This document shows positions 27,633 to 43,448 of a stretch of 64,000 bases of DNA, piece by piece; the first letter of the stretch is position 1, and every line of letters starts with the position of its first letter. This DNA comes from Actinomycetales bacterium (GTDB taxonomy: Bacteria; Actinomycetota; Actinomycetes; S36-B12). A model generated the notes under the pieces. That model was given only the letters and a program-made list of their open reading frames with translations. It searched no databases and was not told the origin of the DNA. Position numbers and translations under genes: made by a program. The DNA lies in the NCBI GenBank assembly GCA_016125355.1, contig WGLX01000006.1:109047-173046 (forward strand), read 5' to 3'.

Positions 27633-28420
27633 TCGCCCCCGCGGATCCGGGGCTCGCCACCCTCGACCGCTCCGGCGAGCCATGGCTGGGTCACGCACAC
27701 GGTCTGGGGACGGTCCGGGTGTATGCCGATGGCCGGTACGACGTGGAACCGGCCGAAGGCGCCGACGCACGCGCTGCAGAGACACTCGAGCACGGCTGGG
27801 CCGAGCTGCTCGGGCACATCCGTCTCGGCCGCCGGATCGTCGGCGGGACGGTCATGCTGGCACCGGACGCAGCGGATTCCCTGCTCGTGTCCGGCGGGAT
27901 GACGGAGCAGTCACAGGCATGCGTCCTGCTCGCCGAGCGCGGATGGCGCCGGGTGTCGGACGGCTTCACGCCGATCGACACCACCACTCCCCTGCGCGCC
28001 TACCGTCGGGGCGGACCGTGGCTGGTCCCACGGCGGCTGGGCCTGGACTCCGATCTCCTCGACGGCCGCCGGATCCGACCGGGTGCCACCGCACAGGAGG
28101 TCCCGACCCCACCGGTGCCGGAGTCGGTGCCGCTGCGGGCCCGCGTCCTCGTCTCCGAGCACGAGGCGACGACGGGCGAGCCGGTGCCCGTGCTTGCCGA
28201 GGTGTCCGGCCGCCGCCGTATGGGCGTCCAGTTCCAGGCATTCGCCGACCGGTTCGTGGGGGGCGCTGCGGATCCGGCACGCGTCATGGCCGACGACCTG
28301 GCCATCAGCAGTCTCCCCTTGTCGACCCTGCAATGGCCGGCGCTCTACCTCGCGCCGCGAGACGAGCGACTCGCCGCGGTCGACGCCCTGGTGGACTGGT
28401 GGAGGGGCCTCAACCCATGA
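27629..28420 (+). CDS. HPr-kinase-like protein with a degenerate P-loop (possible pseudokinase or scaffold)
   Basis: GTG at 27629 (GTGA overlap with the ABC stop), 263 aa. It aligns by eye to the other HprK-like proteins here (LLVSGGMTEQSQACVLLAERGWRRVSDGFTPID versus [32 protein letters not shown]), but GxGKST is replaced. Confidence 0.55.
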   Translation: MIAPADPGLATLDRSGEPWLGHAHGLGTVRVYADGRYDVEPAEGADARAAETLEHGWAELLGHIRLGRRIVGGTVMLAPDAADSLLVSGGMTEQSQACVLLAERGWRRVSDGFTPIDTTTPLRAYRRGGPWLVPRRLGLDSDLLDGRRIRPGATAQEVPTPPVPESVPLRARVLVSEHEATTGEPVPVLAEVSGRRRMGVQFQAFADRFVGGAADPARVMADDLAISSLPLSTLQWPALYLAPRDERLAAVDALVDWWRGLNP

Positions 28421-30198
28421 ACGATCCCACCGGCCCGATCGTCTGGCTCGCCTCGTACCCGAAGTCCGGCAATACCTGGTTCCGTGCGATCCTGTCGGCC
28501 GTCAAGCGCGGTACCGAGCTGTTCACCCTCGACGTACTCGCCTCGGGCGGCCAGCCGTTCGGTCTGGCCACCAGCGTCGACGTACTGGGGCTCGATCCCC
28601 GGTGGCTGACCCGCAGCGAGGCCGAGCGGTTGCGGTACACGTTGGTGTCGGGGGCCACCGGCGACGAGCCGCGATTCCGCAAGACCCACGAGCGCTACCG
28701 CACCACGCCGATCGAGTGGCCCGAGGCCGAAGGCGACCCGCCGCCACCATTTCCGGTCGAGGCGACGCGGGCGGCCGTGACGATCGTTCGGGATCCGCGA
28801 GCGGTCGCGGTGTCGCTCGCGCACCACTTCGGCAAGTCGCTCGAGGACTCCGTGGACCGGATGGCCCGTGACGACACCCAGCGCGCCGACCCCGCACGGC
28901 TCATCGGTGAGCAGCCCTGGGGGTCATGGTCCGGTCACGCCAGGGCGTGGCACCCGGCCCATCTGCCCTTCCCCGCCTACCGGATCCGCTACGAGGACAT
29001 GCTCGAGCGGCCGATCGAGACGCTCGTTCCGGTTCTGACCGGCGTGGGGATCGAGGTCGACGAGGCGACCCTCGTCGCGGCGCTGGAACGGGTCCGCATC
29101 GATCGTCTTCAGCAGGACGAGGCCGAGCAGGGCTTCCGTGAGACCCATGCCCGAGCACAGCGCTTCTTCCGATCAGGCTCGGCGGACGCGTGGCGCACGG
29201 AGTTGCCGGCCCACCTGATCCGAGCGATCGAGGCCGACCACCAGGACGTCATGGCGGAGTTGGACTACCCGCTCACCAGCGACGCGCCGACCCGCAGGGC
29301 GACGCTGCGCGCCCGCACATCGGCGCGGCGTCATCGCGTCATTCCGTGGAACCGCCTGCCCGACCACCTCGCCTTGGAGGTGAACGAGGGCGCTGTGCCC
29401 GACACCCTCGACGGCGCCCGCAGCGTCCGGCCCTGGCTCGACGTGGCACCGGGCCGGGCCCTCGTCAGGCTGACCGGCGGGACGCGCGTTCTCGTTGCCG
29501 ACGGCTGCCGAGCGACCGTCCACATCGACGCGGACCAGCGAACCAGCGGCGACTGGGCATGGCCGGTGCAGGGCTGGACGGTCGCTCTGGCGATGCTGCA
29601 GCGCGGTCATCTCGTGCTGCACGCGGCAGCTCTCGAACGCGACGGGCGGGCGGTGTGCGTGGCCGGCGCGACCCGAGCCGGGAAGTCGACGACCGCGGTC
29701 GGACTACTCGATCGCGGCTTCCGGCTGCTCGTGGACGACGTGGCCGTCATGGACCCCGAGGGGGATGGGTCGACCGTCCTCCCGTACCTCAGGGGCGTGC
29801 ATCTGACCCGCTCGGCAGCGGAGCGATTGGGCCTCGACTACGACAACCTGCCCGCCTTGTCCGCTGGCCGCGGCAAGGCGGTCTTCCTCGGCGATGACCC
29901 GGGCGGGATCCCGGTGCCGTTGGGAACGGTCGTCGTCCTTCGGCGCTCGGCGGCGATCGGGGCGGTCACCTCGCGTTGGCTGACCGGGACCGAGAAGCTC
30001 GCCGCCCTCCGGCAGCAGACAGACCGAGACGGTGCTGCGGCCGCGATCCTCGGGCAGGCACCGTACTTCGAGCGCCTGGCGAGGTTGGCCGCGTCGACGC
30101 CCGTCCTCGAACTGACCCGTCCGCCGCGAACGTGGTCACTGCAGGAGGTCGTGGAGGGCGTCATGGCGGCCGAGTCCCAGGTCCTTTCCTCTTCCTGA
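28417..30198 (+). CDS. sulfotransferase fused to an HPr-kinase-like domain
   Basis: ATG at 28417 (ATGA overlap), 593 aa. The N-terminal half has the PAPS 5'-PSB motif SYPKSGNTWFRAIL and the 3'-PB-like TIVRDPRAVAVSLAHH. The C-terminal half has LHAAALERDGRAVCVAGATRAGKSTTAVGLLDRGFRLLVDDVAVMD. There is no in-frame stop between the halves, but an internal start cannot be excluded. Confidence 0.8.
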   Translation: MNDPTGPIVWLASYPKSGNTWFRAILSAVKRGTELFTLDVLASGGQPFGLATSVDVLGLDPRWLTRSEAERLRYTLVSGATGDEPRFRKTHERYRTTPIEWPEAEGDPPPPFPVEATRAAVTIVRDPRAVAVSLAHHFGKSLEDSVDRMARDDTQRADPARLIGEQPWGSWSGHARAWHPAHLPFPAYRIRYEDMLERPIETLVPVLTGVGIEVDEATLVAALERVRIDRLQQDEAEQGFRETHARAQRFFRSGSADAWRTELPAHLIRAIEADHQDVMAELDYPLTSDAPTRRATLRARTSARRHRVIPWNRLPDHLALEVNEGAVPDTLDGARSVRPWLDVAPGRALVRLTGGTRVLVADGCRATVHIDADQRTSGDWAWPVQGWTVALAMLQRGHLVLHAAALERDGRAVCVAGATRAGKSTTAVGLLDRGFRLLVDDVAVMDPEGDGSTVLPYLRGVHLTRSAAERLGLDYDNLPALSAGRGKAVFLGDDPGGIPVPLGTVVVLRRSAAIGAVTSRWLTGTEKLAALRQQTDRDGAAAAILGQAPYFERLARLAASTPVLELTRPPRTWSLQEVVEGVMAAESQVLSSS

Positions 30199-30249: not shown

Positions 30250-30378
30250 ATGAATCGATCATTTCGCCCATGGACGCCGCCGCGGATCGAGATGCTGAGG
30301 AGCGCGGCCTCGGCCGAGAGCGGCAACTCCTCCAGCTCGACGGAGAACACGACGTCCAACCCGTCGGCACCCCGGTAG
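30250..30378 (+). CDS. lasso-type RiPP precursor peptide A-a (42 aa)
   Basis: Not in the ORF track (<60 aa). MNRSFRPWTPPRIEMLRSAASAES|GNSSSSTENTTSNPSAPR. It shares W-x-x-P-x-(I/L/V/M)...A-E-S-G with four other small ORFs. The predicted core is Gly1...Glu8. Confidence 0.75.
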   Translation: MNRSFRPWTPPRIEMLRSAASAESGNSSSSTENTTSNPSAPR

Positions 30379-30448: not shown

Positions 30449-30577
30449 ATGAATACGACAAATCGCCCGTGGTCAGCTCCGCAGATGGAGGTCCTGAGCC
30501 ACGTCCTGTCGGCGGAGAGCGGCAACACCTCATTGATCAGCGAGTCGTCCGTTTCCGGCCCTTCGTCACCGAACTAG
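30449..30577 (+). CDS. lasso-type RiPP precursor peptide A-b (42 aa)
   Basis: Not in the ORF track. MNTTNRPWSAPQMEVLSHVLSAES|GNTSLISESSVSGPSSPN. It has the same length and register as A-a, and conserved codons (ATGAAT...CGCCC(A/G)TGG, GAGAGCGGCAAC). Confidence 0.75.
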   Translation: MNTTNRPWSAPQMEVLSHVLSAESGNTSLISESSVSGPSSPN

Positions 30578-30630
30578 GTCCGAGCTCCGGGGGCTTGTCC
30601 CTTCTGCCCCCCCTGTGCTTCGCTCAGCCC

Positions 30631-30768
30631 ATGACAAACTCATTGCGGATCTGGTCCACCCCTCAGATCCTCGTCCTGCGCTCGACCGCCTCGGCCGAGT
30701 CCGGCACGCACACCACCATCACCGAGGCGACCGCAACCACGTACAGCTCCCCGTCCGGCGGCCGCTAG
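30631..30768 (+). CDS. lasso-type RiPP precursor peptide A-c (45 aa)
   Basis: C-terminal part of track ORF 30433..30768, starting at the ATG at 30631. MTNSLRIWSTPQILVLRSTASAES|GTHTTITEATATTYSSPSGGR. Core Gly1...Glu8. Confidence 0.75.
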   Translation: MTNSLRIWSTPQILVLRSTASAESGTHTTITEATATTYSSPSGGR

Positions 30769-30811: not shown

Positions 30812-33358
30812 TCAGCCCGTGACGTCGTCCATCGCGTCGAGGGCCTCGCGAATCGCGGTCGCCGTGTGCAGCCCTGCGGAGCCCGCGATCATCCCGTTGT
30901 GGGTCGCCTCGACGACCACCTGCGTCAGACGGACGCCGGGAATCGCGCTCCAGCCGAGGTCCGAGCGGTCCTGACGACCGCCACCAGCGCCCACCGCCCT
31001 CACGAGAACCACATCCCCCTCATAAGGACCGTCCTCGTGGTTCCTGCTGGCCACCTTGGCGAGGGCTTCGAAAGCCGCATGCTGACGTTCTCCGCGACGG
31101 GCCACGACCCCTGCGGTGAGGGCAAGCCATCGGCGACGAGCCCGACGCATCGGCAGCCGGGCCGCCCAGAACGCCTTGCGGGTGAGCGACGATGCCTTCC
31201 CCTGCGCGGCGCGCACCGCCTCCGCCTGCCGGAGCGCAGGACGTAGATCCGATCGCAGCCGTCGGGCCCGGTTCACCTGCTCCGTGACGGCCAGCGTGTC
31301 CAGCAGCACCACGAGGGGCACCGTCACCCCACGGGTGGTGAGCACGCGCGCGGTCTGCATGGCCACCGTGCCCCCGATGGAGTGGCCGATCAGCACGACC
31401 GGCCCGGTGCCCGCCACCTCGACGATGTCCGACGCGGCCGTCGTCGCCATGGCCTCGATGGTGCGGTCAGGGCGCTCGCGTCGGTCGAAGCCGCGTGGCA
31501 CAGCGACCCAGGCGGTACGGCCGCCGATCGTCCGTGCCAGCGTGGCCATCCCGGAGGTGTGGCCACCGCCACCGCCCGGGAAGAGCACCATCGGCACCGC
31601 ATCGCTCGGACCGGTCGCCGCGCGCACGAGGCGCTGCCGGTCCGGGGCGGCCGACACCCAGGCCTCGGCGAGGAGGGCGGGCGTTGGGTGGCGAAGGAGC
31701 AACCCCTCGGACACCGGACGTCCCCATACCGCCTCCAGTCGGGCGCAGACCTCCGACAGCGCGAGCGAGTCCGCGCCCAGGGCCAGCAGGTCGTCGTCGC
31801 GGCCGATGGCCGGATCACCGAGCACGGACCCGAACACCTCGGCAGCCTGCTGCTCGAAGGGGGATCGCGGTGGTGAGAACGCCGGCCTTCCGGTCGCCGA
31901 AGCCATGGCGGTGAGCGCCGCTCGGTCCACCTTGCCCCGGTCCGTGGAGGGCAGCGCGTCCAGCACCTCAACGCGGGCGGGAACATGCGTTCGGGGCAGG
32001 CGATCCGCGAGTGCCGCGCGCACCTGCCACCCGCGGAGGTCCTGGCCCACGACGAACGCCACAGGACGGGGGCGACCTGCCTGGTCGACGGCGATCACCA
32101 CGGCCGCCTCGTCCACGCCAGGCACGCGGCGCACGACGGCCTCGACCTGAACCGGGTCCACGAGCGCTCCCGAGACCTTGACGACATCGTCGGAGCGTCC
32201 CCGCAGGATCAGGGCGCCTGAGACGTCCCACGTGGCCCGGTCGCCGGTCCGGTACGACCGCCCTGTCGGGAGGTCGAGAAACCTCTCGGCGGTTCGCTCG
32301 GGGTCGTCGAGGTAGCCCAAGGCCAGCCATTCGCTCGACACGACAACCTCGCCGACGTCCTCCGGCCCGACGTCCCCACCATCCGGCCCGACCACCCGCA
32401 CCGTGAGCCACGGCACGACCTCGGTCAGCGGAATGGGATCGGTCGGGACGGGCTCCCCCGGGGGGATGCGAACGCCGGCGATCCAGTTGGTCTCGGAGGT
32501 GCTGTACCGGTGGAGCAGGGTTGCCTCGGGGAACAGCGCCCGTGCGCGATCGATCTGGGCAGCGGTCAGCCGGTCGCCGCCGAGGCTGACCAGGCGGACC
32601 CCCGGCAGGGGCGGCATGTCAGCGGACGCCAGCGCAGTGAGGGCTGCCGGCGCCAGGTGCGCGACGGTGACGCCCTCATCGGCGAGGCGATCGAGCACCG
32701 TGTGCGGACCCTCGGCGCTCAGGTCGGCCGTGATCAGGCGTGCGCCGTGCACCAGTGCGGTCCACGTGGGCGTGCCCGCCGCCACGGCGGAGAACGGGCT
32801 GGACACGAGCACCACGTCGTCTTCCGTGATCCCGACGGAACGGCCGTACGACTCGGCGTTGTGCACGATGCTCCGATGGGCGTGCACAACCGCCTTCGGG
32901 CGGCCCGCGGTCCCCGATGTCATCGAGACGGACGCAGGCAGCCCAGCCGCGGGCCAGCTCGGCGAAGTGATGGTCCGCGGGGGCGCTTCGACAGGAATCA
33001 CCTGCGGCCCCAGATCCAGAGCGGCTCGGCGGTGCAGGATGTCGGCAACCACCGCGCCCACGGAGTGCCGCGCCAGGACCTCCGCGTGGAACGCCGGCGG
33101 AGCATGGGGATCGAGCACGAGGTAGGCACGTCCCGACCAGGCGACACCGAGCATGGCCGCAACCATGTCGAGCCCGTCAGTGCACAGCACCGCCACGGGC
33201 CGGTCGGGCAGGGGGGCATCGCCCACCGCGGCGGCGAGCGCGGCGGATCGGACCGCGAGCTCGCGATAGGACAGAGCGCCGTGACGGGACAGGACGGCGA
33301 CCTTGTCGCAGTCCTCGCGGCCGGCGAGGACAGACTCGGGGAGGCTGCGGTCAGCCAT
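30812..33358 (-). CDS. stand-alone NRPS-like protein: adenylation - PCP - thioesterase
   Basis: 848 aa. A-domain cores: SMTSGTAGRPKAV, YSTSET, YRTGD, GRSDDVVKVSG and PSTDRGKVDR. PCP: LGADSLALSE. TE: GHSIGG. Its start overlaps the cyclase stop by 8 nt. Confidence 0.88.
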   Translation of the reverse strand: MADRSLPESVLAGREDCDKVAVLSRHGALSYRELAVRSAALAAAVGDAPLPDRPVAVLCTDGLDMVAAMLGVAWSGRAYLVLDPHAPPAFHAEVLARHSVGAVVADILHRRAALDLGPQVIPVEAPPRTITSPSWPAAGLPASVSMTSGTAGRPKAVVHAHRSIVHNAESYGRSVGITEDDVVLVSSPFSAVAAGTPTWTALVHGARLITADLSAEGPHTVLDRLADEGVTVAHLAPAALTALASADMPPLPGVRLVSLGGDRLTAAQIDRARALFPEATLLHRYSTSETNWIAGVRIPPGEPVPTDPIPLTEVVPWLTVRVVGPDGGDVGPEDVGEVVVSSEWLALGYLDDPERTAERFLDLPTGRSYRTGDRATWDVSGALILRGRSDDVVKVSGALVDPVQVEAVVRRVPGVDEAAVVIAVDQAGRPRPVAFVVGQDLRGWQVRAALADRLPRTHVPARVEVLDALPSTDRGKVDRAALTAMASATGRPAFSPPRSPFEQQAAEVFGSVLGDPAIGRDDDLLALGADSLALSEVCARLEAVWGRPVSEGLLLRHPTPALLAEAWVSAAPDRQRLVRAATGPSDAVPMVLFPGGGGGHTSGMATLARTIGGRTAWVAVPRGFDRRERPDRTIEAMATTAASDIVEVAGTGPVVLIGHSIGGTVAMQTARVLTTRGVTVPLVVLLDTLAVTEQVNRARRLRSDLRPALRQAEAVRAAQGKASSLTRKAFWAARLPMRRARRRWLALTAGVVARRGERQHAAFEALAKVASRNHEDGPYEGDVVLVRAVGAGGGRQDRSDLGWSAIPGVRLTQVVVEATHNGMIAGSAGLHTATAIREALDAMDDVTG

Positions 33359-34940
33359 CGCCCGTGCCGTCCCGGTCTGCTCGGGTCCGGCGGACGAGCT
33401 CCAGCAGCACGGGGTCGTCCTTCGACGTCATGCGGATGTGGTCGGGCACGAGGCCGTCCAGGGCCTTGCGGAACACCAGGCGAGTGTGCCCGCCCAGGCG
33501 GAACACCTCCGGCGGCATGGCCAGCGCCCACTCGACGAGCCGCACGTCCAGTAGGGGGTAGCGGTACTCGACCCCGAAGAGGAGCCCGGCCTCCCGCCAC
33601 GACTCGATCCGGCGCGCCAGGTGGTCGTTGGCGATGAGCGCCTCCTGCACGCCGCGGGGCGAACCCGCCGACCGCAGCCGCACCCGGTGCGCGCGCTGCG
33701 CAGCCACCAGCTCGGGGTGCTCGTGGCCGGTGCTCGCCATGAACTTCTCGCTCGTGCGGGGCTCTTGACGCCTCCCGCCGCGAAGTCGATCCCAGGGATC
33801 CCCGCCCGGCAGCGCCTCCAGCGCCAAGTCCGAGGCCGCCTGTGCACGGGACCGCCCGCGCGACCGGAGTTCCCGATAAGCGGCGCGAACCGGACCGACC
33901 TTGATGGAGCGCACCAGGGCCCGATTCGTCATGCGTCCGTTGAAGCTGGCGAACTCATCGCCGCCCCACCCGCTGAAGATCTGGCGGACGCCGAACTCCG
34001 CATACCGCGGGAGGATCGTGGACTCCCGATTGAGGGTGGAACGAGGCAGCCGGACCGGATCGATCCGCGCCAGCCACTCGGCTTCTCCCAGTTCGTGATG
34101 CCCGAAGATGACCGGCAGGTCGTGCTCAGCGGCCAGCTCCTGGACCAGGGCCCGTTCGTCATAGGCGATGTCGGCACTGTCGAGCGAAGGCAGCGATACC
34201 GGATCGGGGGACCAGGACACGACGGCCGCCAGCGTGCGCCCGCGGGAAGCCAGCTCGCGTTGGACGAGCAGTGCCACGGCCGTGGAATCGAGGCCGCCGG
34301 ACAGGTGTGCGGCGATCGCGTTGACGTCGTCGTGAGGTTCGCCGCGGAGCGCCGCCTCGACGTGGTCTGCCACGACGCCGAGCAGCAGCGCGCGCAGGCA
34401 GTCGGCGGCCTGGTCCACGGAGATGCCGCGCGCCTTCGGCACCTTCTCGGGGAGCCACCACCGGGTGACCGCTGCCTCGCGTCCTTGAATGCGCACCGCA
34501 CAGCCGGGAGGCACGCGATGGACGCCTGCCGCAGGCGTGCGGGTCGGCACCGTCGCGAGCGCGCGGGCCTTGGTCGCCCATGCGAATTCGGCGTCCGCTG
34601 CGATGCCTCCCGGCCGCGCAGCGAGAACCTCGGCGAGGGAGTCGGCGACCACCACGCCGTCGTCCGTTCGGGACCAGTACACGGGCATCAGGCCGAGTTG
34701 GTCCCGGACGATGAGGAGCCCGTCGCCGTCATCGACGGCGTATCCCCACGCACCGCGGAGGCGGGGGCCGGCGGCCCCTCCCCACCGCGTGGCGGCGGCT
34801 GACACGACCTCGCCATCCGAGGCAGAGGCGGATAGCCCCAACCCCGTCTCGAGCTCGGCCCGGTTCGTCAGCCAGCCAGCACTCCACACCACCTCGGCAG
34901 CGGGAGGGTCGGCCAGCACGTGGACATTGTGCCGCGTCAT
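33351..34940 (-). CDS. asparagine-synthetase-like lasso peptide cyclase (C protein)
   Basis: 529 aa. An N-terminal Ntn-like region is followed by the PP-loop AHLSGGLDSTAVA and the AsnB-type C-terminus (GVEYRYPLLDVRLVEWAL). It is divergent from precursor A-d, 54 nt away. Confidence 0.85.
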   Translation of the reverse strand: MTRHNVHVLADPPAAEVVWSAGWLTNRAELETGLGLSASASDGEVVSAAATRWGGAAGPRLRGAWGYAVDDGDGLLIVRDQLGLMPVYWSRTDDGVVVADSLAEVLAARPGGIAADAEFAWATKARALATVPTRTPAAGVHRVPPGCAVRIQGREAAVTRWWLPEKVPKARGISVDQAADCLRALLLGVVADHVEAALRGEPHDDVNAIAAHLSGGLDSTAVALLVQRELASRGRTLAAVVSWSPDPVSLPSLDSADIAYDERALVQELAAEHDLPVIFGHHELGEAEWLARIDPVRLPRSTLNRESTILPRYAEFGVRQIFSGWGGDEFASFNGRMTNRALVRSIKVGPVRAAYRELRSRGRSRAQAASDLALEALPGGDPWDRLRGGRRQEPRTSEKFMASTGHEHPELVAAQRAHRVRLRSAGSPRGVQEALIANDHLARRIESWREAGLLFGVEYRYPLLDVRLVEWALAMPPEVFRLGGHTRLVFRKALDGLVPDHIRMTSKDDPVLLELVRRTRADRDGTGDG

Positions 34941-34994: not shown

Positions 34995-35132
34995 ATGACT
35001 TCGAAGATGCCATGGGGGACCCCCGAGCTGACCCTCCTGCGTTCCGCGGTGGACGCAGAGTCGGGCACGAGGTACTCCGACAGTTCCGAGGGCCAGAGCC
35101 AGTTGACCTTCGTGCCGTCCGGCCAGGCCTAA
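34995..35132 (+). CDS. lasso-type RiPP precursor peptide A-d (45 aa)
   Basis: Not in the ORF track. MTSKMPWGTPELTLLRSAVDAES|GTRYSDSSEGQSQLTFVPSGQA. Core Gly1...Glu9, with Asp6 too close to close a ring. Confidence 0.78.
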   Translation: MTSKMPWGTPELTLLRSAVDAESGTRYSDSSEGQSQLTFVPSGQA

Positions 35133-35206: not shown

Positions 35207-36049
35207 ATGACGACGCGTGTGCACTCTCTGCCTGCCCACCTCGGCATCGCTGTCCGCCGCGGCGTCGTACCGACGTCGCTCTCGGGTGGCCGACGCCTCC
35301 CGGGCGGCGTCACTGTCGCCGACGGCACCACCCTGGTGCGGTTTCCCCAAGGTGCCCTCCTCGTCGAGGACGGCACCACAGCCACGGTCGACTGGCCCGG
35401 CGGCAGCGACGTCCCGTCCTGGGTCATCGAGTCTTGGGCCGTGAGCCTGGCCATGGTGCAGCGCGGGAACCTCTGTCTGCACGCGTCCGTGGTTGCCGTG
35501 GGCGACCGGGTCGTCGCCATCGCCGGTGACTCGGGGGCCGGCAAGTCGACCACGGTGCTGGCCCTCGAGGCGCGGGGCCACCGCCTCCTGACCGACGACG
35601 TGGCCATCGTCGACCTGCGACCCGATGGACCGTGGGTGCTGCCGTACCAGCGCAGCGTCCATCTGCTCCCGGACGCGGCGGCCGCGCTCGACGTTGACTT
35701 CGCGGATCTGGCTCCCCTCGCCGACTTCCCCGAAAAGTCCGCCTACCATCCCGCGGCACCGCCGACCGATCCTCTGCCGATCCACGCCGTGGTGCTGCTC
35801 GTGCCGAATGAGGGCATTGAGATGCCCCGCGTGAGGGAACTGCGGGGCGTCGAGAAGGTGCAGTCGACGATGGTCCACGCGGGCCGACCGGTCACGTCTC
35901 CCGCGATCATGGGCGAGGAACGCTACTTCGCGGCCCTGACCGAGCTGGCCGCGCGGACCCCGGTCTACCTCCTCGAGCGGCCGGAAGGCGCGTGGACCCT
36001 CGACGAGGTCTGCACGGCCATCGAGTCGGTGGCCGCCGAGAAACGCTGA
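35207..36049 (+). CDS. HPr-kinase-like protein (candidate RiPP Ser/Thr kinase)
   Basis: ORF 35012..36049 trimmed to the ATG at 35207, giving 280 aa. [46 protein letters not shown] has an intact P-loop. Confidence 0.8.
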   Translation: MTTRVHSLPAHLGIAVRRGVVPTSLSGGRRLPGGVTVADGTTLVRFPQGALLVEDGTTATVDWPGGSDVPSWVIESWAVSLAMVQRGNLCLHASVVAVGDRVVAIAGDSGAGKSTTVLALEARGHRLLTDDVAIVDLRPDGPWVLPYQRSVHLLPDAAAALDVDFADLAPLADFPEKSAYHPAAPPTDPLPIHAVVLLVPNEGIEMPRVRELRGVEKVQSTMVHAGRPVTSPAIMGEERYFAALTELAARTPVYLLERPEGAWTLDEVCTAIESVAAEKR

Positions 36050-36092: not shown

Positions 36093-36233
36093 ATGCGCAC
36101 ACAGAAGCCCTGGGCCGCGCCCGAGGTAGCACTCCTGCGCGCAGCAGGGGACGCCCAAGGCGGTACTTACTCGTGGTCGACGGAGAACTCCGAGACGGCC
36201 ACCGGGTGCGTCGTTCCCTCAGGCAACGTCTGA
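36093..36233 (+). CDS. lasso-type RiPP precursor peptide A-e (46 aa; possible longer form from the ATG at 36057)
   Basis: Not in the ORF track. MRTQKPWAAPEVALLRAAGDAQG|GTYSWSTENSETATGCVVPSGNV. Core Gly1...Glu8. It ends 10 nt from the convergent A-PCP-TE stop. Confidence 0.75.
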   Translation: MRTQKPWAAPEVALLRAAGDAQGGTYSWSTENSETATGCVVPSGNV

Positions 36234-36243: not shown

Positions 36244-38862
36244 CTAGGCCGACACTCGATTCAAGGCCTCCCGAACGAGACGTGCGGTCTCCGCCACGTA
36301 CGGTTCGTCCACCAACGTCTCGTGCGTGCTCGGGACCGTGCGGATCTGCACGGATCCCCGAACGAAATCTCCCCAGCGCAGGTCCGGCGGAGCGGATCCC
36401 AGATTGCGCGGATCCGACACGGCGGCGCAGATGAGCAGCAGGTCGCCCTCGAACGGCTTCTCCCGGTAGCGGGCCAGCGCGACCGCGACCACGGACTGGA
36501 ATGCCGCATCCCGGCGCTCGCTTCCGACGGGCAGCCAGCGGGCTGACGCCGCTCGGGCCCGGATGGCGACCCGCTCCCCCACGACGCGTCCCGACCAGAA
36601 GGCTCGCCGGGCCCAGCCCGTCCGCTGACCCCGTCGGGCACGCTCCGCCTCGCCGACGCGCACGTGCCGCGGGATGGCTGCACGTAGGGATCGCGACAGG
36701 CGCAGCTGCGGCGATCGCGGTGGCGAGTCCAGGACGACGACGAGCGGGACCTCGACGCCCGCGGCCCGCAGCTGGCGTGCGGCCTCCACCGCGATGTTCC
36801 CTCCCGAGGACATGCCGACCAAGGCGACCGGGCCGGGGGTGCCCTCGGCCAGCCAGTCCGACACGGCGGATCCCGCGATGCCCGTCACCGACCGATCGAT
36901 CCGCCCCCGGTACTGGTACCCCCGGGGGACCACGAGGAAGCACGGCCGACCCGCGACATGTCGAGCCAGCCGGGCGATGCCGGCCAGGCGCGTTCCGCCG
37001 CCGCCACCGAACAGGAGCAGCGGAACCCCTGTCCCGTCCACCGACGACAGCCGGATCAGGCGCGAGTCCCGCGAGGACCCCGGGCGGGCAGGCGCCCTCA
37101 GCGACTCGGCCAGACGGGCCGCCGTCGAGTGCCGAAGGAGCGTCGCCGCCGGCACGTCCCGCCCCAGCCTGGCCGACAGCGCCGATGCCGCCTCCTCGAG
37201 TCCCAGCGAGTCGGCGCCGAGGGCGAGGATGTCGTCGTCCCGGCCAAGGTCGTCCCGCCCGACCACCATGCCGAACTCCGCGAGGATCACAGCCTCGAGG
37301 TCGTCCCGGGCCGGAGCGAACTCCGGTCTCCCGGCGGCCACGGCACGGGTCGCGAGGGCATCGGCGTCCACCTTCCCCATGGGAGTGAGCGGCAGCTCGT
37401 CGACGATCTCGACCACGGCAGGCACCATCGCCGCAGGCAGGGCCGCGGCCACGGCACCGCGCAGGTCGACGGCCCGCACGCCGTCGGCGACGGCGAAAGC
37501 CGCGAGCCGCCGCTCTCCTGACTCGGTGTCGAAGGGCACGACCGCAGCGGCCTCGACACCCTCGACTGTTTCGAGCACGGCCTCGATGCGCACCGGGTCG
37601 ACGAGCACGTCGTGGATCTTCACGGTGGCATCGGCACGACCCGCGAACTCGAGCATCCCGTCCGGGCCACGTCGCATGCGATCGAGGGTCCGGTACCGCT
37701 GCTCGGCTCCGGCAGCCGAGAAGCGCGTGTCGGTGAGCTCCGCATCGTCGAGGTAGCCCAGGGCGAGATGGTCGCCGCGCACCTCCGCCTCGCCCTCACC
37801 CTCGCCGACGGCGACGGCACCATCGGGACCGACCAGGTCGAGGGCCAGCCACGGCACCGGCCAGCCGATGGGCACCGTACCTGTGCCGGGAAGCACAGCC
37901 ACATCGATCTCGAGCCCAGCGGTCCAGTTCGTCTCCGAGGTGTTGTAGCGGTGCAGGAGCCGCGCCTCGGGGAACATCCGATGCGCGGTGCGCACCTGGT
38001 CGACCGTGAGGCGATCGCCGCCCGTCAGGACCCAGCGGACGGTGTCGCAGGTGCGTGAGCCAGCACGCGACCCCAGCGCGGTGAGCAGGCCGGCCGTCAG
38101 GAACACCACCGAGCCGCGACGCTCGTCGAGCGTCGCCACCAGGTCGTCGACACCGGACGACAGGTCGTGGACGAGAGCGGTCGCTCCGCTCAGCAGCGCC
38201 GTGAACACCGGGGTGGCTCCGGCGACGAACGGGAACGGCAGGGTGGCCGCCAGGACGTCGCCGTCGCCCACTTCGAGTGCGCGAGAGACGCGCAGGGCGT
38301 TGTGCACGACGGACCGGTGGGCATGGACCACGGCCTTCGGCCGTCCGGACGTGCCCGAGGTGGACGAGACCGCCACCGGCGCGCCCGGATCGACGGCACG
38401 GTCAAGGGCCGCGCGGCCAGCCGGGGCGTCGAAGGACACGACGGGCGCTCCGCCGGACAGGCGCTCCGCCAGCACCGACTGGCCGGTGTCTCCGATCACC
38501 GCCGAGAGCCGGTGCCGGGAGCTGACCCGCTCGAGGTGCGCCACGGGTGCCTTCGCGTCGAGCACGAGGTACGCCCCGCCGGCGCGCGCCACAGCCAGCA
38601 TGGCCACGACCGCGCGGACATCGTGCCCGGCAAGTACTCCGACCGGGCGCCAGGGGTCCAGTCCCTCCGGCAGTGCCGCAGCGAGGGCTTCGGCTCGGTC
38701 ATCCAGTTCCGCATAGGTGAGGGACTGCTGCCGATCGACCACCGCCGTGCGCCCCGGCCAGCTCCGGACGGCCTCACGGAACGCCACGTCGAGTGTCCGC
38801 TCAGCCCTGTCGGGGTCGTCCAGATCGGCGGCCGGCGGCAGCAGCCACGGTCCGCTGTTCAC
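36244..38862 (-). CDS. second stand-alone NRPS-like protein: adenylation - PCP - thioesterase
   Basis: 872 aa and a paralogue of 30812..33358. Motifs: SSTSGTSGRPKAV, YNTSET, GRADATVKIHD, PLTPMGKVD, the PCP LGADSLGLEE and the TE GMSSGG. Confidence 0.88.
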   Translation of the reverse strand: MNSGPWLLPPAADLDDPDRAERTLDVAFREAVRSWPGRTAVVDRQQSLTYAELDDRAEALAAALPEGLDPWRPVGVLAGHDVRAVVAMLAVARAGGAYLVLDAKAPVAHLERVSSRHRLSAVIGDTGQSVLAERLSGGAPVVSFDAPAGRAALDRAVDPGAPVAVSSTSGTSGRPKAVVHAHRSVVHNALRVSRALEVGDGDVLAATLPFPFVAGATPVFTALLSGATALVHDLSSGVDDLVATLDERRGSVVFLTAGLLTALGSRAGSRTCDTVRWVLTGGDRLTVDQVRTAHRMFPEARLLHRYNTSETNWTAGLEIDVAVLPGTGTVPIGWPVPWLALDLVGPDGAVAVGEGEGEAEVRGDHLALGYLDDAELTDTRFSAAGAEQRYRTLDRMRRGPDGMLEFAGRADATVKIHDVLVDPVRIEAVLETVEGVEAAAVVPFDTESGERRLAAFAVADGVRAVDLRGAVAAALPAAMVPAVVEIVDELPLTPMGKVDADALATRAVAAGRPEFAPARDDLEAVILAEFGMVVGRDDLGRDDDILALGADSLGLEEAASALSARLGRDVPAATLLRHSTAARLAESLRAPARPGSSRDSRLIRLSSVDGTGVPLLLFGGGGGTRLAGIARLARHVAGRPCFLVVPRGYQYRGRIDRSVTGIAGSAVSDWLAEGTPGPVALVGMSSGGNIAVEAARQLRAAGVEVPLVVVLDSPPRSPQLRLSRSLRAAIPRHVRVGEAERARRGQRTGWARRAFWSGRVVGERVAIRARAASARWLPVGSERRDAAFQSVVAVALARYREKPFEGDLLLICAAVSDPRNLGSAPPDLRWGDFVRGSVQIRTVPSTHETLVDEPYVAETARLVREALNRVSA

Positions 38863-39815
38863 GCGGGTTCCCGGGATTCACGACTCACCCCGTGCGTGGA
38901 TCCGGCGGCCAGCACGCGCTCGGATCCACCCTCCGCAGCGCCCCAGGAACGCATGCGAAGCGCGTGGTCCGCATCGTCCGCTGAGCGCCACTCCCAGCTG
39001 ATGTGCCAGAGGCGCGCCTTTGCGGTCGCGCGCGCCCCGAGCGCCTCGATGGCCTCGGCGAGCCTCCGGCGCTCGTCGCCGTCGAGGTACATCAGCAGGG
39101 CGCTGTGCCAGATCACCGTGTCCGTGCCGGGTTGCAGCGTGAGGGACGCGGCGTAGTCCGCGGCCGAGCGCCGCACCACCGCCGCCGGCATGTCCGCCGC
39201 CCACGCGAGCGCACGATCCAGGGCCTCGCGTCGCCGCGGGTTGTCGATCCACACATAGCTGCGGAGCAGGGCCACGTCGTCGGGGTCCCTCGGGTCCAGC
39301 GGGTCGAGGTCGCACCCACCGCGCTCGACGATCTCCGGCAGGCGTGCGGCGTCGTGCGCATCAGTCCACTGCTCCGGATGCAGGTTGAGACCCGCGGACG
39401 CCCCGAGCTCGAACAGGCGGACCGGCCCGGGGATCTCGGCCAGGGCCCGACGCAGCTGCCGACCCCGTCCGATCTCGTTCGTCTGCGGCACCCGGGCGAG
39501 ATAGTGCGCGAGCACCTCGGGATGCTGCCGGAGGGCGTCCGCCACGGCGGACCTCTGCGCGGGGCCGGGCTCCCGGGGCAGGTCGGCATCGCCGTCGAGA
39601 ATGAGCCGGTGCAGTGCCGCGAGGATGCGCAGCCCCACCCGGTCCCCCGAGCGCACCCGGGGCGGAAGGAGCGTAGACGTGGGGCCGGTCAGGCCGTCGA
39701 CCACGGCACCGAGCAGGGCGGCGGAGACCGGCGCGTCCATCGCGAGGCAGAACTCCTGCTGCCAGCGAAGCGCATCCACCAGGTCGACGATCGCATCGTC
39801 AGGGGGTCGGTGCAC
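38859..39815 (-). CDS. DUF2332-like protein
   Basis: 318 aa. YLARVPQTNEIGRGRQLRRALAEIPGPVRLFELGASAGLNLHPEQW matches my recollection of the DUF2332 signature (QTNE..R ... E.GaSAGLNL). It overlaps the downstream A-PCP-TE start by 4 nt. Confidence 0.6.
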   Translation of the reverse strand: MHRPPDDAIVDLVDALRWQQEFCLAMDAPVSAALLGAVVDGLTGPTSTLLPPRVRSGDRVGLRILAALHRLILDGDADLPREPGPAQRSAVADALRQHPEVLAHYLARVPQTNEIGRGRQLRRALAEIPGPVRLFELGASAGLNLHPEQWTDAHDAARLPEIVERGGCDLDPLDPRDPDDVALLRSYVWIDNPRRREALDRALAWAADMPAAVVRRSAADYAASLTLQPGTDTVIWHSALLMYLDGDERRRLAEAIEALGARATAKARLWHISWEWRSADDADHALRMRSWGAAEGGSERVLAAGSTHGVSRESREPA

Positions 39816-39877: not shown

Positions 39878-40993
39878 GTGACTGCCGGGGTGCCGCCGCT
39901 GCGAGACATCGTGCCGGGCTGGCGTCCCCCCGCCCCCGGGCGCGCGATCGCCGTGGTCGAGGGCGAGGGCATCGGGGCCGAGGTCGTGGGCGCGGCCCTC
40001 ACGGTGCTGTCGGCCGCCTGCGATGCCTGGCAGACCGAGGTCCTCGTCGACCGGTCGGGCCCGATCGGCAGCGTCGGTCCGGCCGGTTTCGGCCTCGACC
40101 AGGCCGCGGTCGACTTCTACGATTCCGCCTTCGAGCGTGGGCTGCCGGTGCTCACCGGGCCGGCCGGTGGGCGCTTCGTCTATGAGCTGCGGGCCCGCTA
40201 CGAACTGTTCGTCAAACTCGTCCCGACCCGGCCGGACGCCGGCCTCGCCGACGCCTCGGTCATCCGCCCCGAGCGGCTGCGCGAGGTGGATGTGCTCATC
40301 GTGCGGGACAACATCGGCGGGCTCTACCAGGGTGCCTTCAGCGTGTCCGCGGATGGGCGGTCGGCGTTCCAGGAGGCCCGCTACGACCTCGACACCGTCG
40401 AGGTGCTCATGCAGGTCGCGGTCGCCGCGGCTCGCGCACGCGGCGGCCGTCTCGCCGTGGTCACCAAGCCCGGTGGCATCCCGACCATCAGCGCGCTGTG
40501 GCGTCGAGTGGCCGAGGAGCACGCCGGCGATGACGTGGTGATCGACGTCATCGAGGTGGACAACGCGTGCTTCCAGCTGGTCGCCGACCCCCATCGCTTC
40601 GACGTTGTCGCTGCTCCGAACATGCTCGGCGACGTCGTGGCGGACACCGCCGCCCTCGTGCTCGGCTCGCGCGGGCTGTCCTACTCGGCGAACTTCGGTC
40701 TCCCAGGACGGGCGGTCTACCAGACCGGCCACGGAGCGGCACACGATCTGGCCGGACTCGACCGCGCCAATCCCATTGCCCAGATCAGGTCCCTGGCATG
40801 GCTGATCCGAGAGAGCCTGGAGCTGCCGCACATGGCGGAGTCCATCGAGATGGCGGTGGACTCGGTCCTGGCCGATGGTTTCCGCACCGCCGACATCGCC
40901 AGCCCAGGGTCCACCGTGCTGGGCACCCGGGGGCTCGCGACGCGCATCGCCGAGCGTGTCAAGCAGGCCGCGCTGGACCGCGCTTCACCGTGA
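39878..40993 (+). CDS. isocitrate/isopropylmalate dehydrogenase-family oxidoreductase
   Basis: 371 aa. IAVVEGEGIGAEVV, LIVRDNIGGLY and NMLGDVVADTAA (the NxxGD(I/V)xSD-type motif) are typical of beta-decarboxylating dehydrogenases. Confidence 0.75.
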   Translation: MTAGVPPLRDIVPGWRPPAPGRAIAVVEGEGIGAEVVGAALTVLSAACDAWQTEVLVDRSGPIGSVGPAGFGLDQAAVDFYDSAFERGLPVLTGPAGGRFVYELRARYELFVKLVPTRPDAGLADASVIRPERLREVDVLIVRDNIGGLYQGAFSVSADGRSAFQEARYDLDTVEVLMQVAVAAARARGGRLAVVTKPGGIPTISALWRRVAEEHAGDDVVIDVIEVDNACFQLVADPHRFDVVAAPNMLGDVVADTAALVLGSRGLSYSANFGLPGRAVYQTGHGAAHDLAGLDRANPIAQIRSLAWLIRESLELPHMAESIEMAVDSVLADGFRTADIASPGSTVLGTRGLATRIAERVKQAALDRASP

Positions 40994-43337: not shown

Positions 43338-43448
43338 CGCCTCCGACGTGCGCGCCCAGCCGGCCACGCGTGCCCGGGGCGATGTCGTCACGAGGCCGAG
43401 TGTAGGCGCGGGCCCCACCGCCGCGCGGCTCTCGGCTACCGTCGACGC

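What the first reader, a model, noticed from the sequence alone, without database searches (positions are those of the whole stretch)
30812..34940. NRPS-like A-PCP-TE gene translationally coupled to the lasso cyclase (possible RiPP-NRPS hybrid chemistry)
The cyclase stop (33351) overlaps the A-PCP-TE start (33358) by 8 nt, so an adenylating, carrier-protein-tethering, thioesterase-releasing enzyme is co-translated with the ring-forming enzyme. A paralogue sits at 36244-38862. Both have complete A-core motifs, a phosphopantetheine Ser (LGADSL) and a GxSxG TE, but no condensation domain. One plausible role is loading an amino or carboxylic acid and transferring it to a Ser/Thr hydroxyl or an amine of the peptide. 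That would be a new type of lasso tailoring.
Basis: partly seen in the sequence, partly recalled or inferred. Interest (0 to 1): 0.8.

Follow-up and report, generated by a model that had tools for sequence, protein, structure and literature searches.

The report
NRPS-like module inside lasso-peptide cluster

Summary
Window 30812-33358(-) encodes an 848-aa A-PCP-TE protein with no condensation domain. Its ATG overlaps the stop codon of an Asn-synthetase-like lasso cyclase (33351-34940) in the 8-nt sequence ATGGCTGA. A paralogue with 42% identity lies at 36244-38862.

The link to lasso genes is not a local accident. Close homologues (at least 39% identity) are very rare, and the nine loci with lasso genes come from metagenomes or uncultured Actinomycetes. 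These loci also carry PqqD, B2, HprK-like kinases, sulfotransferase, a nucleotidyltransferase, an IPMDH-like dehydrogenase and an isochorismatase-ALDH fusion. Precursor genes (Gly1, Glu8, C-terminal P-S-G-xx) sit directly 3' of the A-PCP-TE gene. The RTGNNTGA junction with the cyclase is conserved in five loci. More distant homologues are never next to lasso genes.

All catalytic residues are invariant. The specificity code is V-A-T-H-S-G-R-W-I-K, which lacks Asp235 and has an invariant Arg322. This argues against an alpha-amino acid and for an anionic 2-oxo or 2-hydroxy-type acid.

The second paralogue is coupled to a DUF2332 protein with a methyltransferase fold.

Transfer of the acid to the peptide is plausible but untested. 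I found no published precedent. The verdict is a new variant of a known kind, and it is interesting.

The parts
30812..33358 (-). A-PCP-TE #1 (848 aa), the cyclase-linked type with specificity code VATHSGRWIK
   Evidence: Pfam. NCBIfam AA-adenyl-dom scores 243 bits, below its cutoff. The AF2 model has pLDDT 88.5, and its best PDB matches are the NRPS termination modules AB3403, EntF, SrfA-C and ObiF1. Code.
31931..33319 (-). Adenylation domain of #1 (aa 14-476). Val at position 235, Arg at 322, A10 Lys476.
31661..31843 (-). PCP domain of #1 (aa 506-566). The phosphopantetheine Ser531 (LGADSL) is encoded by codon 31766-31768.
   Evidence: G528, D530, S531 and L532 are invariant
30896..31594 (-). 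Thioesterase domain of #1 (aa 589-821). Ser660 (GHSIGG), Asp687 and His820 form the triad. The lid helices (aa 693-772) are Arg-rich.
33351..33358 (-). 8-nt overlap ATGGCTGA between the cyclase stop and the A-PCP-TE start
   Evidence: The same RTGNNTGA junction occurs in L001, L003, L168 and L169.
33351..34940 (-). Asn-synthetase-like lasso cyclase (529 aa) with the SGGLDS PP-loop
   Evidence: It is the only Asn_synthase match among the GC3-selected ORFs scanned with Pfam across the window. It belongs to a short clade of 509-560 aa.
36244..38862 (-). A-PCP-TE #2 (872 aa), the DUF2332-linked type with code VATFLGRWTK
38859..39815 (-). DUF2332 protein. Its stop overlaps the start of A-PCP-TE #2 by 4 nt (GTGA). 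It has a class-I methyltransferase-like fold.
   Evidence: Pfam 178 bits. Junction. The AF2 model has pLDDT 93.5, and its Foldseek hits are almost all SAM methyltransferases. The same pairing occurs in L003 and L167.
30250..30378 (+). Precursor A1: MNRSFRPWTPPRIEMLRSAASAES|GNSSSSTENTTSNPSAPR
30449..30577 (+). Precursor A2: ...RPWSAPQMEVLSHVLSAES|GNTSLISESSVSGPSSPN
30631..30768 (+). Precursor A3: ...RIWSTPQILVLRSTASAES|GTHTTITEATATTYSSPSGGR. Its stop lies 44 nt from the convergent stop of A-PCP-TE #1.
35007..35132 (+). Precursor A4: MPWGTPELTLLRSAVDAES|GTRYSDSSEGQSQLTFVPSGQA, divergent from the cyclase
36093..36233 (+). Precursor A5: ...KPWAAPEVALLRAAGDAQG|GTYSWSTENSETATGCVVPSGNV. Its stop lies 10 nt from the convergent stop of A-PCP-TE #2.
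39878..40993 (+). Isocitrate/isopropylmalate-dehydrogenase-family enzyme. It is co-conserved with the cluster at 68-71% identity between loci.
40990..42891 (+). Isochorismatase-like hydrolase fused to an aldehyde dehydrogenase, co-conserved with the cluster
42888..43703 (-). Lasso B2 protease (transglutaminase-like)
   Evidence: Pfam Transglut_core3. NCBIfam lasso_biosyn_B2 scores 53.8 bits against a cutoff of 33.
25559..25843 (+). PqqD-like B1 / RRE protein
   Evidence: Pfam PqqD 73 bits
25848..27632 (+). ABC exporter
28420..30198 (+). Sulfotransferase fused to an HprK-like kinase
35210..36049 (+). HprK-like kinase. Its true start is uncertain but lies after precursor A4.
47227..48405 (-). 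NTP_transf_5 nucleotidyltransferase, co-conserved with the cluster

Best explanation
The two A-PCP-TE proteins are accessory tailoring modules of a kinase-type lasso-peptide pathway. They are not a stray NRPS.

Shown:
- Each protein is an intact NRPS-like termination module without a condensation domain.
- They have been inherited together with the cyclase, the precursors and the other cluster genes.
- The gene behind the cyclase is translationally coupled to it.

Inferred:
- The A domain adenylates a carboxylic acid that is not an alpha-amino acid. The acid is probably a 2-oxo or 2-hydroxy-type acid that carries a second anionic group.
- That acid is probably supplied by the co-conserved IPMDH-like dehydrogenase and the isochorismatase-ALDH fusion. 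For paralogue #2, it is probably modified by the coupled DUF2332 methyltransferase-fold protein.
- The acid is carried as a thioester on Ser531 of the PCP and passed to Ser660 of the TE.
- The strongly cationic TE then hands it to a hydroxyl of the anionic, phosphorylated, sulfated or glycosylated peptide, or to its phospho-sugar appendage. This would be an O-acylation.

I put about 0.75 on the statement that the modules are a functional part of the lasso pathway. I put about 0.4 on the full chain ending in acyl transfer to the peptide.
For: Comparative genomics:
- The clade with at least 39% identity has about 14 members in 5.8 billion clustered proteins. It occurs in only 4 of 185,579 species genomes and in none of the scanned JGI metagenome contigs.
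- Nine loci carry it among lasso genes: the window, the JGI 66-kb contig, L001, L002, L003, L009, L167, L168 and L169.
- In six of these it directly follows the cyclase. The RTGNNTGA overlap is conserved in five.
- Gene order elsewhere in these clusters is shuffled, but the association persists.
- Precursor genes lie convergent at the 3' end of the gene in the six loci where the peptides could be read: the window, L001, L003, L167, L168 and L169. The JGI contig has three small ORFs in the same position, but no DNA was held.
- Pairwise identities of the A-PCP-TE and the cyclase across 7 loci correlate (Mantel r=0.79, p about 0.004).
- About 80 more distant homologues have no lasso neighbours.

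Protein features:
- Lys476, Ser531, GxS660xGG, Asp687 and His820 are invariant.
- The fold matches NRPS termination modules.
- The specificity code was derived with GrsA numbering validated against 1AMU. Canonical control sequences in the same alignment gave the expected codes. Position 235 is Val/Ala/Leu/Gln, never Asp, and Arg322 is invariant.
- Keto-acid A domains typically replace Asp235 with an aliphatic residue (PMC10949194).
- There are two orthogroups with different residues at 278 and 299. One is cyclase-linked (H, S/A) and the other DUF2332-linked (F, L/V). The split holds in three independent loci.
- DUF2332 has a methyltransferase fold. Its weak structural hits include the alpha-keto-acid C-methyltransferases SgvM and MrsA.
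- The TE net charge is about +10, against about +1 for other TEs in the hit list.
- The IPMDH-like enzyme and the isochorismatase-ALDH fusion are present wherever enough DNA is held.
Against: - There is no experimental or mass-spectrometric evidence, and no acceptor residue has been identified.
- The only invariant hydroxyl in the core peptides is the Ser of the C-terminal P-S-G motif. By analogy with paeninodin, this Ser is more likely the kinase target.
- L171 has the same precursors, cyclase, IPMDH-like gene and isochorismatase-ALDH gene but no A-PCP-TE in the 17.9 kb held. The module is therefore not needed for lasso formation and may be dispensable.
- L170 carries a clade member (42% identical to A-PCP-TE #1) with no lasso genes on its 10-kb contig.
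- TE domains of this architecture often simply hydrolyse.
- The link between the A domain and the IPMDH-like and ALDH enzymes rests on co-occurrence only.
- The DUF2332 structural hits are weak (TM 0.25-0.31).
- The TE charge comparison used only 14 outgroup sequences.
- No PPTase is encoded in the window.
Confidence: 0.4

Rival explanations
1. Building-block factory. The A-PCP-TE holds an acid on its carrier while cluster enzymes (the IPMDH-like dehydrogenase, the ALDH, the DUF2332 methyltransferase, and a possible PhyH-like oxygenase at 44704-45723) modify it. The TE then hydrolyses it, as in NikP1-type A-T-TE proteins. The free product is attached to the peptide by another enzyme, such as the nucleotidyltransferase or a glycosyltransferase, or is used as a co-metabolite.
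For: The architecture is the same as on-carrier tailoring systems (my own knowledge of NikP1). The methyltransferase-fold DUF2332 is translationally coupled to paralogue #2. Several redox enzymes are co-conserved. The TE triad is intact, and hydrolysis is the default TE reaction.
Against: None of the co-conserved enzymes belongs to a family known to act on carrier-bound substrates. The Arg-rich TE lid is conserved and the gene is tightly coupled to the cyclase. A simple hydrolytic release step would not need either feature.
Confidence: 0.25
2. Independent small-molecule synthetase nested in the cluster. Like the fungal and bacterial NRPS-like A-T-TE enzymes (TdiA, AtrA, RalA), each protein loads two 2-oxo acid units and its TE condenses them into a furanone- or quinone-type compound. 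That compound is merely co-regulated with the lasso peptide.
For: The A-T-TE architecture has no C domain. An aliphatic residue replaces Asp235, and the first two code positions are V-A. An enzyme family that produces 2-oxo acids (Iso_dh) is in the cluster.
Against: The rest of the code (T-H-S-G-R-W-I) is basic rather than aromatic-binding. The genes are interleaved with lasso genes and precursors, not set as a separate block, and this persists through rearrangements in nine loci. The coupling to the cyclase is conserved.
Confidence: 0.15
3. The module acts directly on a carboxylate of the ribosomal peptide, either the C-terminus or an Asp/Glu side chain. It adenylates the carboxylate and tethers the peptide to the PCP. 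The TE then forms a second ring, for example a lactone between the invariant Ser of P-S-G-xx(x) and the C-terminus, or otherwise transforms the tail.
For: Lack of Asp235 is what an N-acylated (peptidyl) substrate would need. The P-S-G motif sits at a fixed 3-4 residues from the C-terminus, while its distance from Glu8 varies from 5 to 15 residues. TE domains are classical macrocyclases. The cyclase clade has lost its C-terminal extension and is coupled to this gene. The TE is cationic and the peptides are acidic.
Against: To my knowledge no ANL-family A domain is known to adenylate a peptide C-terminus. The C-terminal residues vary (A, V, S, N, R, G), whereas the pocket has an invariant Arg322 and a conserved code. 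Two or three paralogues with distinct codes fit distinct small acids better.
Confidence: 0.07
4. Neighbour by descent only. The genes sit in the cluster through shared ancestry of a few related genomes and have no role in the peptide pathway.
For: All the lasso-context loci come from metagenomes or uncultured Actinomycetes-type genomes. The cluster lies next to the same housekeeping clpX in at least three of them, so vertical inheritance contributes to the co-occurrence and to the Mantel correlation.
Against: The proteins have diverged to 40-60% identity and gene order has been reshuffled, yet the gene stays inside the cluster, keeps all catalytic residues and keeps the 8-nt coupling to the cyclase. 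Paralogue number varies from 1 to 3 within clusters.
Confidence: 0.05

Closest known systems
Kinase-type lasso peptide clusters (paeninodin; pseudomycoidin, which adds a nucleotidyltransferase that glycosylates the phospho-Ser)
   Same: All have a split B1 (PqqD) / B2 protease, an Asn-synthetase-like cyclase, HprK-like kinase(s), an NTP_transf_5 nucleotidyltransferase, sulfotransferase and an ABC exporter. Precursors have a W-x-x-P leader motif and a Ser near the C-terminus.
   Different: Those clusters are from Firmicutes and have no A-PCP-TE, IPMDH-like, isochorismatase-ALDH or DUF2332 genes. In this family the Ser lies in a P-S-G-xx(x) motif rather than at the C-terminus. The leader lacks the usual Thr at -2. 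The cyclase is about 70-100 aa shorter. Each cluster has 3-4 kinase paralogues.
NRPS termination modules (EntF, SrfA-C, AB3403, ObiF1)
   Same: These are the best sequence and fold matches over the A, PCP and TE domains. All core motifs and the Ser/Asp/His triad are present.
   Different: There is no condensation domain, no upstream module and no Asp235. The protein stands alone and is encoded inside a RiPP cluster.
NRPS-like A-T-TE enzymes that use 2-oxo acids (TdiA, AtrA, RalA) and keto-acid A domains of depsipeptide synthetases (StsA, Ces, Vlm)
   Same: The A-T-TE architecture matches. An aliphatic residue stands in place of Asp235 (rule stated in PMC10949194; StsA in PMC11355689).
   Different: The pocket residues are basic (His278, Arg322) rather than aromatic or aliphatic. 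There is no KR domain. The genomic context is a RiPP cluster. The products of this family are unknown.
Carrier-protein-dependent decoration of anionic polymers (DltA/DltC D-alanylation of teichoic acids)
   Same: An adenylating enzyme plus a carrier protein delivers an acyl group to hydroxyls of a phosphate-rich acceptor. DltA models are among the NCBIfam hits at 115-132 bits, well below their cutoffs.
   Different: This is a resemblance in how it may work, not a family membership. Dlt has no TE and uses an MBOAT-type transferase. The substrate there is D-Ala.
RiPP hybrids with PKS/NRPS or acyl donors (lipolanthines, goadvionins, pheganomycin; albusnodin Lys acetylation)
   Same: A ribosomal peptide is combined with a separately activated acyl or amino-acyl unit.
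   Different: From my own knowledge, those use GNAT or ATP-grasp enzymes for the joining step. None uses a TE domain and none is a lasso peptide, except the simple acetylation in albusnodin (PMC9266682).

Membership tests
NRPS-type A-PCP-TE module | ANL adenylation domain with core motifs and the catalytic A10 lysine | tested here: met
   Pfam AMP-binding plus AMP-binding_C. Motifs seen. Lys476 is invariant in 14 clade members.
NRPS-type A-PCP-TE module | Carrier domain with a phosphopantetheinyl serine in a GxDS motif | tested here: met
   PP-binding at 35 and 32 bits. G528, D530, S531 and L532 are invariant.
NRPS-type A-PCP-TE module | Type-I thioesterase with GxSxG and an Asp and His triad | tested here: met
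   Pfam Thioesterase. G658, S660, G662, D687 and H820 are invariant. The TE part of the model aligns with EntF, SrfA-C and AB3403.
NRPS-type A-PCP-TE module | Asp235 that binds the alpha-amino group of an amino-acid substrate | tested here: not met
   Position 235 is Val (or Ala/Leu/Gln in relatives) by both phmmer and MAFFT alignment.
NRPS-type A-PCP-TE module | Conversion to the holo form by a PPTase | not testable with these tools
   No PPTase was found in the window by Pfam scans or a motif search. PPTases are usually encoded elsewhere in the genome.
NRPS-like aryl-2-oxo-acid condensing synthetases (TdiA/AtrA/RalA) | A-T-TE architecture without a C domain | tested here: met
NRPS-like aryl-2-oxo-acid condensing synthetases (TdiA/AtrA/RalA) | Specificity code for aromatic 2-oxo acids (V-A-E-F-S-G-G-A-C-K, recalled from memory) | tested here: not met
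   The code here is V-A-T-H-S-G-R-W-I-K. Only the first two positions and Lys517 agree.
NRPS-like aryl-2-oxo-acid condensing synthetases (TdiA/AtrA/RalA) | The TE condenses two enzyme-bound units into a quinone or furanone | not testable with these tools
   This needs biochemistry.
Lasso peptide biosynthetic cluster | Precursor with a leader and a core that starts with Gly/Ala/Ser/Cys and has Asp/Glu at position 7-9 | tested here: met
   Five window precursors have Gly1 and Glu8 or Glu9. Thirteen further precursors read in L001, L003, L167, L168, L169 and L171 have Gly1 and Glu7 or Glu8.
Lasso peptide biosynthetic cluster | B2 transglutaminase-like leader protease | tested here: met
   NCBIfam lasso_biosyn_B2 scores 53.8 bits against a cutoff of 33. 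Pfam Transglut_core3 also matches.
Lasso peptide biosynthetic cluster | B1 / PqqD-like recognition element | tested here: met
   Pfam PqqD at 73 and 58 bits.
Lasso peptide biosynthetic cluster | Asn-synthetase-like macrolactam synthetase (C protein) | tested here: inconclusive
   Pfam Asn_synthase scores 83 bits and the SGGLDS PP-loop is present. The lasso-specific NCBIfam models score far below their cutoffs (94.8 against 525, and 71 against 300). No solved lasso cyclase was found by sequence. The assignment rests on context and on this being the only such gene found among the ORFs scanned.
Lasso peptide biosynthetic cluster | Threaded lariat topology of the product | not testable with these tools
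   This needs isolation followed by NMR or MS.
Kinase-type (paeninodin-like) lasso clusters | HprK-related kinase that phosphorylates a C-terminal Ser of the precursor | tested here: inconclusive
   Hpr_kinase_C gives E=3e-7 but 30.6 bits, below the gathering score of 33.3. TIGR04352 scores 46-56 bits against a cutoff of 200. The conserved Ser is 3-4 residues from the C-terminus, not terminal.

The most novel reading that the evidence does not exclude
The A-PCP-TE works on the ribosomal peptide itself. It adenylates a peptide carboxylate and tethers the peptide to its own carrier domain. The thioesterase then closes a second ring, for example between the invariant Ser of the P-S-G motif and the C-terminus. 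NRPS off-loading chemistry would thus be grafted onto a lasso peptide, in complex with the truncated cyclase to which it is translationally coupled.
Probability: 0.07. Interest if true: 0.95.

Novelty: new variant of a known kind. Interest (0 to 1): 0.72.

Why it matters
Known lasso tailoring consists of small group transfers and side-chain edits: phosphorylation, glycosylation on phosphate, methylation, acetylation, hydroxylation, epimerisation, citrullination and succinimide formation (PMC9266682). A carrier-protein-dependent NRPS-like module that is conserved inside a lasso cluster and coupled to the cyclase would add a new chemical logic to RiPP maturation. It would link ribosomal and thiotemplate biosynthesis through a thioesterase. 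It would also provide a portable way of attaching unusual acids to peptides.

The family is also notable for its large number of anionic decorations (3-4 kinase paralogues, a sulfotransferase, a nucleotidyltransferase and glycosyltransferases) and for multiple precursors per cluster. It has been seen only in metagenomes and uncultured actinobacteria, so its products are entirely unknown. The comparative data here give a defined gene set of about 23 kb (window 25.5-48.4 kb) and clear mutants to test.

Tried and rejected
- A metagenome-contig scan with the clade profile returned only relatives of 35% identity or less, with no new loci.
- The genome-contig scan gave four close loci, two of which duplicate loci already held. 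One of the four, L010, looks frameshifted and has no lasso genes.
- Seven literature searches combining "lasso peptide" with thioesterase, HPr kinase, sulfotransferase and nucleotidyltransferase, adenylation domain, AMP-binding, carrier protein, isochorismatase or NRPS-like found no report of this association. The hits were generic genome-mining papers.
- A PDB sequence search with the cyclase found only a distant hydroxyamidotransferase, so there is no structural confirmation of cyclase identity.
- PDB searches with the IPMDH-like and ALDH proteins gave only generic family hits and no substrate assignment.
- A promoter and terminator scan of 30.1-36.4 kb found nothing.
- No PPTase was found in the window.
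- The conserved 259-aa protein at 27641-28420 has no Pfam or NCBIfam match.
- I considered that the Asn-synthetase homologue might be an amidotransferase partner of the A-PCP-TE rather than the cyclase. I rejected this because it is the only such gene found next to B1, B2 and Gly1/Glu8 precursors, and it occurs without an A-PCP-TE in L171.
- I considered ClpX as a resistance gene. I rejected this because it is 88% identical between loci whose cluster genes are about 50% identical, which marks it as a housekeeping neighbour.

Full report
**What is in the window**

The window has about 70% G+C. An exact protein match shows that it comes from a 177,889-bp contig of an "Actinomycetales bacterium" MAG.

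- 30812-33358(-) encodes an 848-aa protein with AMP-binding, AMP-binding_C, PP-binding and Thioesterase domains and no condensation domain.
- 36244-38862(-) encodes an 872-aa protein with the same domains. It is 42% identical to the first.
- 33351-34940(-) encodes a 529-aa Asn-synthetase homologue with an intact SGGLDS PP-loop.

The minus strand reads ...GATGGCTGA/ATGGCTGAC. The cyclase stop and the A-PCP-TE start therefore share the 8-nt sequence ATGGCTGA.

**The surrounding cluster**

Pfam and NCBIfam scans and a search for small ORFs give this order:
- PqqD (25559-25843)
- ABC exporter
- a conserved unknown protein of 259 aa
- a sulfotransferase-HprK-like fusion
- three precursor genes (30250-30768)
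- convergent A-PCP-TE #1 and cyclase
- divergent precursor A4 (35007-35132) and an HprK-like kinase
- precursor A5 (36093-36233)
- convergent A-PCP-TE #2, preceded by a DUF2332 gene whose stop overlaps its start (GTGA)
- an IPMDH-like dehydrogenase and an isochorismatase-ALDH fusion
- the B2 protease (NF033537 above its cutoff)

Further right lies a second set of genes. It has a different type of precursor, another PqqD, another kinase, an NTP_transf_5 nucleotidyltransferase and glycosyltransferases.

All five precursors on the left share a W-x-x-P leader motif, an (A)-E/Q-S/G|G junction, Gly1, Glu8 (Glu9 in one) and a C-terminal P-S-G/A/S-xx motif. The Asn-synthetase homologue is the only such gene found among the ORFs scanned. 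It scores below the lasso-specific NCBIfam cutoffs, and no solved lasso cyclase could be matched. Its role as cyclase is therefore inferred from context.

**Is the association real?**

Close homologues of A-PCP-TE #1 are very rare:
- About 14 clusters reach at least 39% identity in a 5.8-billion-protein collection.
- Four loci were found in 185,579 species genomes.
- None was found in the JGI metagenome contig scan.

I looked at every context I could fetch. Clade members are embedded among the same lasso genes in:
- the JGI 66-kb contig
- L001
- L002
- L003, which has three A-PCP-TE genes
- L009
- L167
- L168
- L169

In six of the nine loci, counting the window, the A-PCP-TE gene directly follows the cyclase. 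In the five loci for which I have DNA, the junction is RTGNNTGA. In the six loci where the peptides could be read, precursor genes lie convergent at its 3' end.

There are two exceptions. L170 carries a homologue 42% identical to A-PCP-TE #1 on a 10-kb contig without lasso genes. L010 carries a frameshifted copy. About 80 more distant homologues (37% identity or less) never have lasso neighbours.

Pairwise identities of the A-PCP-TE and the cyclase across seven loci are correlated (Mantel r=0.79, p about 0.004). This shows co-inheritance. Vertical descent near the same clpX gene contributes to the correlation.

The cyclase homologues form an equally tight and rare clade of short proteins of 509-560 aa. 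They lack both the N-terminal segment and the C-terminal extension of their nearest relatives of about 600 aa.

One member of the cyclase clade, in L171, sits with the IPMDH-like gene, the isochorismatase-ALDH gene and PSG-type precursors. It has no A-PCP-TE in the 17.9 kb held. The module is therefore accessory to lasso formation.

**What the proteins can do**

In an alignment of 14 clade members, the following are invariant:
- the A10 lysine
- the PCP serine, within G-x-D-S-L
- the TE G-x-S-x-G-G motif
- the TE Asp and His

An AlphaFold model has pLDDT 88.5. It matches the NRPS termination modules AB3403, EntF, SrfA-C and ObiF1 over their A-PCP-TE parts.

I derived the ten-residue specificity code with a GrsA fragment whose numbering I checked against 1AMU. 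Canonical NRPS sequences in the same alignment gave the expected Ser and Val codes. A phmmer alignment to LgrA gives the same residues.

- The cyclase-linked type reads V-A-T-H-S/A-G-R-W/Q-I-K.
- The DUF2332-linked type reads V-A-T-F-L/V-G-R-W-x-K in three independent loci.
- Arg322 is invariant, and Asp235 is never present.

Loss of Asp235 to an aliphatic residue is the usual mark of keto-acid A domains (PMC10949194). The basic residues at 278 and 322 resemble, from my memory of Asp/Asn codes, a pocket for a second acidic group. I therefore infer a non-amino, anionic 2-oxo or 2-hydroxy-type acid as substrate. This fits with the always-present Iso_dh-family enzyme, because that family makes 2-oxo acids.

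The DUF2332 model has pLDDT 93.5. Its PDB neighbours are weak (TM 0.25-0.31), but almost all are class-I SAM methyltransferases. They include the keto-acid C-methyltransferases SgvM and MrsA. The invariant ELGASAG motif looks like SAM-binding motif I. This is a lead, not a result.

The TE domains of the clade carry about +10 net charge, concentrated in Arg-rich lid helices. A small set of other TEs averages about +1. This would suit an anionic partner such as a phosphorylated, sulfated or acidic peptide.

**Most likely mechanism and rivals**

Shown: the genes encode intact carrier-dependent acyl-handling enzymes that belong to this lasso cluster family.

Inferred:
1. The A domain loads a special acid made by the cluster.
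2. The PCP carries it.
3. The TE passes it to a hydroxyl of the decorated peptide or its appendage.

The main rival is hydrolytic release of a building block that another enzyme attaches. A nested, independent A-T-TE small-molecule synthetase of the TdiA/RalA type is less likely, because of the interleaving and the coupling to the cyclase. Direct activation of a peptide carboxylate followed by TE cyclisation is the most radical reading. It is not excluded. It would explain the fixed distance of the P-S-G serine from the C-terminus. It fits poorly, however, with a conserved charged pocket and with paralogues that have distinct codes.

**Comparison and novelty**

The lasso core and the kinase, nucleotidyltransferase and sulfotransferase set resemble the paeninodin and pseudomycoidin type clusters of Firmicutes (PMC8498205). 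Those have no A-PCP-TE, IPMDH-like, isochorismatase-ALDH or DUF2332 genes.

A 2022 review of lasso modifications lists nothing of this kind (PMC9266682). Seven full-text searches found no report. That library is incomplete, so absence there is not proof.

I classify this as a new variant of a known kind: a lasso cluster family with an integral NRPS-like module. The link to the lasso pathway is supported, an amino-acid substrate is disfavoured, and transfer to the peptide remains open.

Noticed in passing
window 35007-35132 (+) and 36093-36233 (+): There are two further PSG-type precursor genes. One overlaps the nominal start of the HprK-like ORF at 35012, so that kinase must start later. The other ends 10 nt from the convergent stop of A-PCP-TE #2. 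The window therefore has at least five precursors of this type.
   Followed up: partly
window 44602-44694 (-), 45808-45912 (+), 45958-46080 (+); also L168 950-1060 (-): A second kind of precursor-like ORF has a WQ(A/P)PEV leader but no Gly1/Glu8/PSG core. These lie next to a second PqqD (46955-47230), an HprK-like kinase (46098-46958), NTP_transf_5, an HprK-like+GT2 fusion, GT1 and GT61. They may be a second substrate family for the same B2 and cyclase, or a different RiPP.
   Followed up: no
window 33351-34940 and homologues P0121-P0134: The cyclase clade (509-560 aa) lacks about 50-70 N-terminal residues and a C-terminal extension of about 60-70 residues that its nearest relatives (about 600 aa) have. 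The protein ends exactly where the A-PCP-TE gene begins.
   Followed up: partly
leaders of all PSG-type precursors (window, L001, L003, L167-L169, L171): The residue at -2 of the predicted leader/core junction is Glu, Gln, Met or Ala, not the usual Thr. The predicted junction is (A)-E/Q-S/G|G.
   Followed up: no
L171 1-7905: A related locus has the IPMDH-like gene, the isochorismatase-ALDH fusion, two or three PSG-type precursors and the short cyclase. It has no A-PCP-TE, B2, PqqD or kinase in the DNA held, and the contig ends 2.5 kb upstream. This suggests that the dehydrogenase/ALDH pair is tied to the peptides even more tightly than the A-PCP-TE is.
   Followed up: partly
window 39878-40993 (+): The IPMDH-like enzyme keeps the catalytic Tyr, Lys and Asp residues and two of the three substrate arginines. 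It has Val in place of the Arg of the NLRP motif (KLVP). Its substrate may lack one carboxylate of a normal 3-substituted malate.
   Followed up: no
window 40990-42891 (+), N-terminal domain: The "isochorismatase" domain has HACVRETALDA. From memory this resembles the Cys-nucleophile motif of nicotinamidase-type amidohydrolases, so it may be an amidase rather than an isochorismatase.
   Followed up: no
window 24020-25468 (-): The ClpX-like gene beside the cluster is 88% identical to the one beside the L001 cluster, while cluster genes are 45-65% identical. It is a housekeeping neighbour that marks a conserved chromosomal site, not a cluster gene.
   Followed up: yes
window 27641-28420 (+): A 259-aa protein with no Pfam or NCBIfam match is conserved between the ABC exporter and the sulfotransferase-kinase gene in L001, L003 and L168. 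A gene of similar size sits at the same position on the JGI contig.
   Followed up: partly
window 59649-59744 (+): A small ORF, MVAPSRWQEPEIARLTGALESVPPPSGIVDM, has a W-x-x-P leader-like motif and a PSG motif. It lies about 4 kb beyond the last glycosyltransferase scanned on that side (GT61, 54838-55641).
   Followed up: no
L003 1694-4108 (-): A third, divergent A-PCP-TE (804 aa, about 29% identity, code IAISYY K/E VK) lies in the same cluster next to the isochorismatase-ALDH gene and sugar genes.
   Followed up: partly
window 1-13200: This region holds a type IV pilus gene set (PilM, three T2SSE ATPases, T2SSF, prepilin-like proteins). It is unrelated to the finding.
   Followed up: no
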